A stretch of DNA of 38,324 nucleotides from a virus (lineage: Duplodnaviria; Heunggongvirae; Uroviricota; Caudoviricetes), in IMG/VR virus record IMGVR_UViG_2718218135_000002, positions 1 through 38,324 of that record; one strand, given 5' to 3'. Position numbers: made by a program. Positions 15,001-18,000 of this stretch are shown one piece after another. Every line of letters starts with the position of its first letter. Positions within the stretch are counted from its first letter, which is position 1.

Positions 15001-18000
15001 CCTGGTCACGCACTGTTAAGCCTCTGTATGACGCTCTGGTGGTGCAATGCCACAAGGAAGAGTCAATCGCAGACAACATTTTGAATACGGTCACACGTTA
15101 GCTGCATGATTGCCACGGATGGCAACATATTAACAGCATGATATTGACTTTTTGAATAAAGTTGGGTAAATTTGACATCAACGATGGATAAATGCACTCG
15201 TTAAATAAAGCCCTGAGTTAATAGCTCGGGGCTTTTTGTGTTTTAAGCACGGCCTTTCTGAAAGCACATCAAACCAAATACCAGACAGACAAAAATAATC
15301 ACCTTATCCGCTGTGGCTACGGTGCGGTGTGCTTTGCATAAAAGAAAACTAGCTCAATGTCTGGCTTCGTGAAAGCTGGTGACAGGAGGTTGCGCTAACA
15401 ACCTCCTGCCGTTTTGCCCGTGCATATCGGTCACGAACAAATCTGATTACTAAACACAGTAGCCTGGATTTGTTCTATCAGTAATCGACCTTATTCCTAA
15501 TTAAATAGAGCAAATCCCCTTATTGGGGGTAAGACATGAAGATGCCAGAAAAACATGACCTGTTAGCCGCCATTCTCGCGGCAAAGGAACAAGGCATCGG
15601 GGCAATCCTTGCGTTTGCAATGGCGTACCTTCGCGGCAGATATAATGGCGGTGCGTTTACAAAAACAGTAATCGACGCAACGATGTGCGCCATTATCGCC
15701 TGGTTCATTCGTGACCTTCTCGACTTCGCCGGACTAAGTAGCAATCTCGCTTATATAACGAGCGTGTTCATCGGCTACATCGGTACTGACTCGATTGGTT
15801 CGCTTATCAAACGCTTCGCTGCTAAAAAAGCCGGAGTAGAAGATGGTGGAAATCAATAATCAACGTAAGGCGTTCCTCGATATGCTGGCGTGGTCAGAGG
15901 GAACAGATAACGGACGACAGAAAACCAGAAATCATGGTTATGACGTCATTGTAGGAGGAGAGCTATTCACTGATTACTCTGATCACCCTCGCAAACTTGT
16001 CACGCTAAACCCCAAACTCAAATCAACAGCAGCCGGACGTTACCAGCTTCTTTCCCGTTGGTGGGATGCCTACCGCAAGCAGCTTGGCCTGAAAGACTTC
16101 TCTCCGAAAAGTCAGGACGCTGTGGCATTGCAGCAGATTAAGGAACGTGGCGCTTTGCCGATGATTGATCGCGGTGATATTCGTCAGGCAATCGACCGTT
16201 GCAGCAATATCTGGGCTTCACTGCCGGGCGCTGGTTATGGCCAGTTCGAGCATAAGGCTGACAGCCTGATTGCAAAATTCAAAGAAGCAGGCGGAACGGT
16301 CAGAGAGATTGAGGTATGAGCAGAGTAACCGCGATTATCTCCGCTCTGGTTATCTGCATCATCGTCTGCCTGTCATGGGCTGTTAATCATTACCGTGATA
16401 ACGCCATGACCTACAAAGAGCAGCGCGATAAGGCCACATCCACAATCGCTGACATGCAGAAGCGTCAACGTGATGTAGCAGAACTTGACGCCAGATACAC
16501 AAAGGAGCTTGCTGATGCTAACGCGACTATCGAAAGCCTCCGTGCTGATGTTTCTGCTGGGCGTAAGCGCCTGCAAGTCGCCGCCACCTGTGCAAAGTCA
16601 ACGACCGGAGCCAGCAGCATGGGCGATGGAGAAAGCCCAAGACTTACAGCAGATGCTGAACTCAATTATTACCGTCTCAGAAGTGGAATCGACAGGATAA
16701 CCGCGCAGGTTAACTACCTGCAGGAATACATCAGGACGCAATGCCTTCGATGATAGCGATAATTTTACTCATCATCCTTCACATCTGGCTCTGTAGACAG
16801 GGTGATGATCACTTCTGGAGTGAATCCAGATTAAACATCTCATTGCTGATGCTTGATATTGAGCATCTTGCGCGCGGTAAGGGGCTGCGTTGAGATAAGA
16901 GCCAGTCATTACAAATACCAGGATTTAGCCTCGCATTCGCGGGGCTTTTTATTGCAACAAAGGTAAAGACGATGGATGAAGAATATCGTAAAGACCTGCA
17001 ACTGTGGTTTGGTCTTACGCATGCGCCGTTCTGCGTGATGCCGCGAGTATTCATGGAGGCTATGCCGCCAGAATGGCAAGAGAAGATGGCTCAGTTGCTT
17101 TTTGAGTATAGCGACACAATCAAAACGGATGTCTGCGGAGTTCACAGCTGTTTTGTTACTGCCAAAGACGGCAACAACCGCTTTATGAGGATGCCAGAAG
17201 ATATTCTGAACTATCGTCATCCCCGACGTGAATTCATCGAATCAGTTCTGAAGAAGTAGCCATTACAAAGCCTATCTACTGGTGGGCTTGATAATGAAAC
17301 CAGAATTTATTCTTGGCAACCAGTTACGGCAGTACAGCGAAACAACCCAAGCCAGTAAGTGGGGAAATAACACTGGCAGCCACTGAAAGATGAACCTCCT
17401 GCCTTATGGCAAAAAAGATTCTTTGTGGTGGCGGACTGATGGAAAGACATCGGTTATTGCAGAGACCATTCAATGAGTGGTCTCGACAATGGCTTATACC
17501 CTACACGGGATAACTTAACTGATATTCCTTTTAACGGATAAACGGAGCCAACAATGGCAGAGATTATTCCCATGACTGAAGAACAGAAATTCCAGTTAGA
17601 GATTTACAAACTGGTCATGAACCAGAACGCAGCCGCAGAAGAAGCATTTCAATTCATTGGCACTGACGAACTGAAGCTTGAGCTATTCAAAATTCACTTC
17701 CAGTCAGGCGGCGCTAATTCAGATATCACGACCCGCACTATCGAAGCGGTACGTAAATCGAAGGAAGCGTTAGACCTGTTCACTACCGGAGCGTAAACAT
17801 GGCAACTCAAGGTTTCGACAACCCATCCAAATTCCGTGATGAATGGGATAAGCAAGCAGAAGGGAAATAATCAATATGGCGACTGAGAAAAAGAATGTCG
17901 GTCGCCCTTCGGATTACCTGCCGGAGGTGGCTGATGATATCTGTGCGCTGCTTGCCTCCGGGGAAAGTCTGGTTAAGGTTTGCAAGCGCCCCGGCATGCC

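What the first reader, a model, noticed from the sequence alone, without database searches (positions are those of the whole stretch)
15144..15244. Late promoter followed by a terminator only about 60 nt downstream
A lambda-type Q gene, pR'-like promoter and near-lambda S/R/Rz genes are present, but the first strong terminator hairpin lies about 60 nt after the predicted start site, so the constitutive short transcript would be much shorter than lambda 6S RNA (194 nt). The Q-to-S interval is also shorter than I recall for lambda (about 435 bp here). The lambda-like late control and lysis unit is joined to Sf6-like structural genes, a clear mosaic junction.
Basis: partly seen in the sequence, partly recalled or inferred. 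Interest (0 to 1): 0.35.

Follow-up and report, generated by a model that had tools for sequence, protein, structure and literature searches.

The report
P22-type short late-operon leader terminator
The promoter with a terminator about 60 bases downstream is real, but it is the ordinary late-gene control switch of phage P22, HK97 and HK022, already annotated in the P22 reference genome, so it is not new.

Summary
A lambda-type Q gene (14478-15101) is followed by a promoter whose two hexamers and spacing match lambda pR' exactly (15144-15172). Next come the conserved Q-loading and pause sequences, then a strong intrinsic terminator (stem 15207-15235, U-tract to about 15244). The terminated transcript would be about 60 nt, against 194 nt for lambda 6S RNA. 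The Q-stop to S-ATG distance is 434 bp, against 676 bp in lambda.

It is not unusual. The same promoter-leader-terminator unit occurs in P22, HK97, HK022, the HK and mEp coliphages, Sf101 and Emek. The P22 reference record annotates it as 't late or tR'; antiterminated by gene 23 protein', with the same 434-bp interval.

Only two leader forms follow this promoter in the sequences sampled. Among 139 viral contigs carrying this promoter and pause motif, 83 had the short P22 form and 56 the long lambda form. Among 5426 complete E. coli genomes, 331 carry the short form and 408 the lambda form.

Homology to lambda stops at about +23 and resumes at 15365, so this is a module swap, not a deletion.

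The mosaic claim is partly right. S and R are lambda-like and Sf6-like alike, Rz is P22/Sf6-type, and the joints flank the leader rather than the lysis genes.

Verdict: already known, low interest.

The parts
14478..15101 (+). Q antiterminator gene (lambda Q / P22 gene 23 type)
   Evidence: ORF. 205/207 identical to lambda Q and 201/207 to P22 gp23. Pfam PF03589, E = 1.3e-57.
15144..15172 (+). Late promoter pR' (P late): -35 TTGACT at 15144-49, 17-bp spacer, -10 TAAATT at 15167-72
   Evidence: Consensus scan. Hexamers and spacing identical to lambda pR' and to the promoter annotated in P22.
15150..15170 (+). Q-binding region (qut/QBE), TTTTGAATAAAGTTGGGTAAA
   Evidence: 19 of 21 bases match the lambda qut string given in the HK/mEp phage records. 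Identical to P22, HK97 and HK022. Q binding itself is inferred, not tested.
15172..15185 (+). Promoter-proximal sigma-70 pause element: -35-like TTGACA (15172-77), 2-bp gap, -10-like AACGAT (15180-85). The predicted transcript start is at 15179/15180.
   Evidence: Aligned with lambda and P22. The P22 record marks the RNA 5' nt at the equivalent A. The extra A at 15177 is shared with HK97 and with 21 viral contigs.
15207..15244 (+). Intrinsic terminator tR' (t late): 13-bp stem with a 3-nt loop at 15207-15235, U-tract TTTTTGTGTTTT from 15233
   Evidence: Scan. Fold -18.6 kcal/mol; leader z = -5.05. Equivalent to the annotated P22 't late or tR'' and to the Emek 'rho-independent terminator'.
15203..15364 (+). 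P22-type leader segment, which replaces 405 bp of lambda (lambda 44610-45014)
   Evidence: blastn of the window against lambda leaves a gap between 15202 and 15365. The segment is near-identical in P22-type phages.
15383..15415 (+). Second conserved hairpin (10-bp perfect stem, 6-nt loop, then CCG and TTTT) in the part of the leader shared with lambda and Sf6
   Evidence: Read. Folds at -19.3 kcal/mol. Conserved in lambda, Emek and HK544 and lies inside the Sf6 match. Its role is inferred only.
15536..16753 (+). First late genes: S holin (15536-15859, dual start M-K-M), R endolysin (15843-16319), Rz spanin (16316-16753)
   Evidence: ORFs. Pfam holin PF05106 and Rz PF03245. Identities to lambda and Sf6.

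Best explanation
This is the late-gene switch of a P22-like temperate phage or prophage, in its P22/HK97/HK022 form.

Proposed mechanism:
1. The promoter pR' fires constitutively.
2. RNA polymerase still carrying sigma-70 pauses a few bases in, when sigma re-binds the -10-like AACGAT on the non-template strand.
3. Without Q, the polymerase resumes and terminates at the hairpin and U-tract (15207-15244), releasing an RNA of about 60 nt. No late genes are expressed.
4. When Q has been made from the early right operon, it binds its site between the -35 and -10 hexamers and loads onto the paused polymerase. It forms a nozzle on the RNA exit channel that blocks hairpin formation.
5. The modified polymerase then reads through tR', and any later terminators, into S, R, Rz and the head and tail genes.

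The leader is a minimal version. Bases +1 to +23 are the Q-loading region shared with lambda. Four bases later the terminator hairpin begins.

Shown here: sequence identity of every element to lambda, P22 and HK97, and the strength and conservation of the terminator. Inferred from established lambda/P22 biology: pausing, Q loading, termination efficiency and read-through.
For: - The Q protein is 99% identical to lambda Q and 97% to P22 gp23, and belongs to Pfam PF03589.
- The promoter hexamers, their spacing and AACGAT are identical to lambda. The qut region is identical to P22, HK97 and HK022.
- The P22 RefSeq record annotates the homologous promoter, the qut site, the RNA 5' nt and 't late or tR'; antiterminated by gene 23 protein'. 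Its stem ends 59 nt from the start, and its gene 23 to gene 13 interval is 434 bp.
- Emek annotates the same hairpin as a rho-independent terminator.
- Terminator strength: 13-bp stem, -18.6 kcal/mol, leader z = -5.05.
- Conservation: 83 of 139 viral contigs with this promoter/pause motif carry this leader, with few substitutions up to the U-tract. 81 phage records cover at least 80% of the whole interval. 331 of 5426 complete E. coli genomes carry it.
- Viable phages (P22, HK97, HK022) use it.
- Literature: the Q cassette is defined as Q gene, pR', pause element, terminator and late genes. The RNA 5' end threads the Q torus at an RNA length of 15-16 nt, well before the hairpin here, which starts at +28 (PMC9388147). 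Lambda Q and P22 gp23 can substitute for each other (bioRxiv 10.1101/2020.10.05.325894). Short terminated late-promoter RNAs are reported for phages 21, phi80, 82 and P22 (PMC7547250).
Against: - There is no direct transcript or termination data for this sequence.
- Variation in the stem is too small to show compensatory changes.
- The extra A between TTGAC and AACGAT alters the spacing in the Q-loading region. Its effect is untested, although HK97 carries it.
- The base after the expected pause site is A rather than the G found in lambda, so pause strength may differ (read).
Confidence: 0.93

Rival explanations
1. The 60-nt RNA is more than a by-product. In lysogens it acts in trans as a small regulatory RNA, as StxS does in Shiga-toxin phages. 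This would be in addition to the terminator's cis role.
For: - pR' is constitutive in lysogens, and the RNA ends in a terminator hairpin plus U-tail, the usual Hfq-binding 3' end.
- StxS and IsrK show that late-leader RNAs can gain such roles (PMC7547250; PMC4825925).
- There is a weak Rfam resemblance to the Hfq-binding RNA isrJ: 28 bits, E = 0.0014.
- The leader is strongly conserved and is present in about 6% of complete E. coli genomes.
Against: - Every part of the 60 nt is already accounted for by cis functions: the Q-loading region to +23, a 4-nt linker, and the terminator. No free seed region remains.
- The isrJ hit is below the gathering score (28 against 37). The true isrJ in Gifsy-1 scores 100 bits and has a different promoter and context.
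- A duplex search of leader bases 1-30 against 88 phage 5' regions found nothing beyond chance; 9% of shuffles did as well.
- No host targets could be searched.
Confidence: 0.06
2. The short interval is a deletion in a decaying, defective prophage. The late switch would then be damaged rather than a normal variant.
For: Relative to lambda, 242 bp are missing from the Q-S interval.
Against: - The same 434-bp interval is present in plaque-forming phages P22, HK97 and HK022 and in many HK and mEp phages.
- The segment between 15203 and 15364 is not a subset of lambda sequence. It is a different 162-bp module.
- Q, S, R and Rz are intact ORFs.
Confidence: 0.01

Closest known systems
Phage P22 late control region (gene 23, P late, qut, t late/tR'), also carried by HK97, HK022, the HK/mEp coliphages, Sf101 and Emek
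   Same: - The Q type, promoter, qut, pause element, terminator hairpin and position, and the 434-bp Q-to-holin interval all match.
- Identity over the 121-bp core is 94-99%.
   Different: - An extra A at 15177, shared with HK97 but not with P22 or HK022.
- A 3-nt loop AAT, where P22 has a slightly longer loop.
- One T-for-C change in the U-tract.
- The downstream holin is lambda S-type rather than P22 gene 13.
Phage lambda pR' - 6S RNA - tR'
   Same: - The Q protein is 99% identical.
- The -35 and -10 hexamers and AACGAT are identical, and the sequence is homologous to +23.
- S and R are 99% identical, and the last 171 bp of the leader are shared.
   Different: - Lambda has a 194-nt leader and a long compound terminator hairpin. 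Here the leader is about 60 nt with a simple 13-bp hairpin.
- The segment between +23 and 15365 is a non-homologous replacement: 162 bp here against 405 bp in lambda.
- There is no orf-64 equivalent.
Sf6 / phage 21 late leader
   Same: - The logic is the same: Q, a promoter, then a terminator within a few tens of bases, then late genes.
- Sequence is identical from 15365 onward through S, R, Rz and gene 65.
   Different: - Sf6 has a Q21-family protein, unrelated in sequence and fold to lambda Q (PMC9388147).
- Its promoter overlaps the end of Q.
- Its terminator starts about 10 bp after the promoter, and two tRNA genes follow it.
StxS, IsrK and IsrJ (short RNAs from prophage late-leader regions)
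   Same: They are short, constitutively made RNAs ending at an intrinsic terminator just downstream of a prophage Q gene region.
   Different: - Those RNAs have demonstrated Hfq binding or phenotypes; this one has none known.
- There is no sequence-family membership: isrJ scores 28 bits against a gathering score of 37.
- The Gifsy-1 Q is phage-82-type.

Membership tests
Lambda-Q-type late antitermination cassette | Q protein of the lambda Q family (Pfam PF03589) encoded immediately upstream | tested here: met
   PF03589, 192 bits. 205/207 identical to lambda Q.
Lambda-Q-type late antitermination cassette | Sigma-70 promoter directly downstream of Q, with the Q-binding element between the -35 and -10 hexamers | tested here: met
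   TTGACT, 17-bp spacer, TAAATT. The spacer is 19/21 identical to the lambda qut string and identical to P22/HK97. Protein binding was not tested.
Lambda-Q-type late antitermination cassette | [quoted passage not shown] | tested here: met
   AACGAT at 15180-85 and TTGACA at 15172-77. The gap is 2 bp rather than 1 bp, as in HK97.
Lambda-Q-type late antitermination cassette | Intrinsic terminator between the pause site and the first late gene | tested here: met
   Stem 15207-15235 plus U-tract. -18.6 kcal/mol; z = -5.05.
Lambda-Q-type late antitermination cassette | Lysis and morphogenesis genes downstream on the same strand | tested here: met
   S, R, Rz, then the terminase genes.
Lambda-Q-type late antitermination cassette | Termination without Q and read-through with Q | not testable with these tools
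   Needs in vitro transcription or lysogen RNA analysis.
P22-type t late / tR' leader form | Sequence homology from the promoter through the terminator U-tract to the annotated P22 features, at the same distance from the start | tested here: met
   P22 annotation. Alignment at 96% mean column identity. 94.3% identity over 121 bp.
Lambda 6S RNA | Homology across the 194-nt transcript and its compound terminator | tested here: not met
   blastn homology ends at 15202, about +23. The lambda terminator fold is unrelated.
Rfam RF01393 isrJ | Covariance-model score at or above the gathering score (37 bits) | tested here: not met
   28 bits. The genuine isrJ in Gifsy-1 scores 100.3 bits.
Trans-acting Hfq-dependent sRNA from a late leader (StxS-like) | Hfq binding and base-pairing with target mRNAs | not testable with these tools
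   Only a within-window duplex search was possible, and it was at chance level.

The most novel reading that the evidence does not exclude
The P22-type pR' RNA of about 60 nt is made constitutively by prophages in about 6% of complete E. coli genomes and in many Salmonella. It could be a trans-acting regulatory RNA in lysogens, with the loop of its 5' hairpin or its linker acting as a seed, as StxS does for Shiga-toxin phages.
Probability: 0.06. Interest if true: 0.45.

Novelty: already known. Interest (0 to 1): 0.08.

Why it matters
It matters little as a discovery. The arrangement is the documented late switch of P22 and of many coliphages.

It is useful for annotation in three ways:
- Lambda's 194-nt 6S leader is only one of two forms that follow the same Q, promoter and pause module.
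- The exchangeable part begins right after the Q-loading region, at about +23.
- The short form is a minimal 'qut plus terminator' unit.

The common 1-bp spacing variant between TTGAC and AACGAT, carried by HK97 and this window, is a ready-made natural test of how tolerant Q loading is to changes in geometry.

Tried and rejected
- Rfam scan of the region. Only sub-threshold hits appeared. The best, isrJ, was followed into Gifsy-1 and judged an analogue, not a homologue.
- Covariation test of the terminator stem. It was abandoned because the 29 distinct leader sequences differ too little.
- The idea that the extra A at 15177 is an error or unique. Rejected: HK97 and 21 viral contigs share it.
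- The idea that the short leader is lambda with an internal deletion, as the MAFFT alignment suggests. Rejected: blastn finds no homology between 15203 and 15364, and the two terminator folds differ.
- tRNA genes in the interval, as in Sf6 and phage L. None were found.
- Search for base-pairing targets of the leader within the phage. The result was at chance level.
- Older primary papers on the phage 21 and lambda late regions (PMC207295, PMC432979) were not held. I therefore could not read any experimental sizing of the P22 short RNA. It is cited only second-hand, through PMC7547250.

Full report
**What is there.** The window is a mosaic P22-like (Lederbergvirus-type) E. coli/Shigella phage or prophage. 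Its closest relatives in the phage collection are Kapi1, phiv205-1, Sf101, CUS-3, HK620 and Sf6.

The following elements surround the finding:
- A 207-aa ORF at 14478-15101 is 205/207 identical to lambda Q and 201/207 to P22 gp23. It belongs to Pfam PF03589.
- 42 bp after its stop codon lies TTGACT, a 17-bp spacer, then TAAATT (15144-15172).
- Next come TTGACA (15172-77), TC, and AACGAT (15180-85).
- A 13-bp hairpin with a 3-nt loop follows (15207-15235), then TTTTTGTGTTTT.
- The S holin ATG is at 15536, followed by R, Rz and the terminase genes.

**Is it real and more than chance?** The promoter-like match alone would not stand out: 2 were found against 3.3 expected by chance. However, it matches the experimentally defined lambda pR' in both hexamers and in spacing, and differs at only 2 of 21 positions in the intervening qut region.

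The hairpin is the best terminator-like site in the 3-kb scan. It folds at -18.6 kcal/mol. The 71-nt leader has a z-score of -5.05, and none of 200 shuffles fold as well.

With the start placed by homology at 15179/15180, the terminated RNA is about 60 nt. The Q-stop to S-ATG distance is 434 bp, against 676 bp in lambda.

**What it is.** A similarity search with 15080-15560 returned 177 phage records, 81 of them covering at least 80% of the query. They include HK544, mEp213, mEp043, HK542, mEpX1, mEpX2, HK106, mEp234, HK140, Sf101, HK022, HK97 and Salmonella phage Emek. Emek annotates the hairpin as a rho-independent terminator.

The P22 reference record annotates the homologous region fully:
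- 'P late or P R'' at 37852-37880.
- A lambda-like qut site.
- The RNA 5' nt at 37887.
- 't late or t R'; antiterminated by gene 23 protein action' at 37917-37945.

The P22 stem therefore ends 59 nt from the start. The P22 distance from gene 23 stop to gene 13 ATG is 434 bp, exactly as here. The alignment of the window with P22, HK022, Emek and HK544 has 96% mean column identity, and HK97 is identical through the promoter and leader. The feature is the P22-type late leader and terminator.

**Relation to lambda.** blastn shows lambda homology over 14468-15202 (Q, the promoter, and the transcript to about +23) and again from 15365. Between these points, 162 bp here replace 405 bp of lambda.

The MAFFT alignment makes this look like three deletions, but the segment is not detectably homologous. 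Lambda's terminator is also a long compound hairpin of a different kind. The swap point lies immediately after the region needed to load Q.

Sf6 homology also begins at 15365. Upstream of that point, Sf6 has a phage-21-type Q, its own tR' about 10 bp after the promoter, and two tRNA genes. No tRNA gene is present in the window's interval.

**How common is it?**
- 83 carry the short P22-type leader and 56 the lambda-type leader. No third type appeared.
- Among 5426 complete E. coli genomes, 331 hold the short form over at least 80% of a 121-bp query. 408 hold the lambda 6S form, many of them laboratory strains.
- In the phage collection, 30 records hold the lambda form, mostly lambda derivatives.
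- The short leader is very uniform up to the U-tract. Sequences diverge right after it, some switching to lambda-like downstream sequence. The end of the terminator is therefore another recurrent recombination joint.

**How it most likely works.** The logic is that of the Q cassette as defined in PMC9388147: Q gene, pR', a sigma-dependent pause element, a terminator, then late genes.
- Polymerase starting at pR' pauses when sigma region 2 re-binds AACGAT.
- Q bound between the -35 and -10 hexamers loads onto the paused complex, helped by NusA, and forms a nozzle on the RNA exit channel.
- That paper states the RNA 5' end threads the nozzle at an RNA length of 15-16 nt. The terminator's 5' arm here starts at +28, so loading is complete before the hairpin could form.
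- Without Q, the polymerase releases the 60-nt RNA.
- Lambda Q and P22 gp23 are reported to be interchangeable. Short terminated late-promoter RNAs are reported for phages 21, phi80, 82 and P22.
- The sequence correspondences are shown here. Pausing, loading and read-through are inferred.

**Rival readings.**
- A trans-acting role for the RNA, like StxS or IsrK, cannot be excluded but has little support. All 60 nt are accounted for by cis elements. The Rfam isrJ resemblance is sub-threshold at 28 against 37 bits. The true isrJ in Gifsy-1 sits downstream of a Q82-type gene with a different promoter. A duplex search within the phage was at chance level.
- A decayed prophage is excluded, because viable phages have the same interval.

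**The mosaic claim.**
- S is 100% identical to Sf6 and 99% to lambda.
- R is 98-99% identical to both.
- Rz is 97% identical to Sf6 but only 59% to lambda.
- Similarity to Sf6 in the structural genes varies from 64% to 96%.

The lysis genes therefore do not mark a lambda/Sf6 boundary. The joints flank the Q-promoter-leader module.

**Verdict.** Interest is low.

Noticed in passing
window 15172-15185: An extra A at 15177 turns the -35-like TTGACT into the consensus TTGACA. It also widens the gap to the AACGAT pause element from 1 bp to 2 bp. HK97 and 21 IMG/VR contigs share it, while at least 120 contigs lack it. This is a natural spacing variant inside the Q-loading region.
   Followed up: partly
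window 15383-15415: A perfect 10-bp hairpin (CAGGAGGTTG / CAACCTCCTG, 6-nt loop) is followed by CCG and then TTTT. It is conserved in lambda, P22-type phages and Sf6, upstream of S. It may be a weak second terminator, or a hairpin-spacer-U-tract site of the kind speculated about in PMC9388147.
   Followed up: partly
window 15365, and just after 15244: Homology to both lambda and Sf6 resumes at the same base, 15365. In other viral contigs, sequences diverge immediately after the tR' U-tract. These are recurrent recombination joints that bracket an exchangeable leader segment.
   Followed up: partly
window 16316-16753: Rz is P22/Sf6-type (97% to Sf6, 59% to lambda), although the adjacent S and R are 99% lambda-like. 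Lambda DNA homology ends inside Rz at about 16564.
   Followed up: yes
L150 (Gifsy-1) 33406-33520, minus strand: The Salmonella sRNA IsrJ has its own TTGCAA, 17-bp spacer, TATATT promoter and a GTAAAT -10-like motif at its 5' end. It lies between the antirepressor-like gene and the lysis genes, downstream of a Q82-type Q. It looks like a late-leader short transcript. IsrK overlaps Rfam C4-antisense-RNA target and C4 RNA matches.
   Followed up: partly
window about 14746-14778, minus strand: A TTGC-N6-TTGC motif lies inside the Q gene, at the position where P22 annotates the C1-activated antisense promoter a23 (the lambda paQ equivalent).
   Followed up: no
window 16927-16946: A terminator-like hairpin (8-bp stem, then TTTTATT) lies inside the late operon, between the Rz region and the terminase genes.
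   Followed up: no
window 15358-15399: A 13-codon mini-ORF (MSGFVKAGDRRLR) ends in the loop of the second hairpin. An equivalent mini-ORF is present in lambda and HK544. No obvious ribosome-binding site precedes it, so it is probably fortuitous.
   Followed up: no
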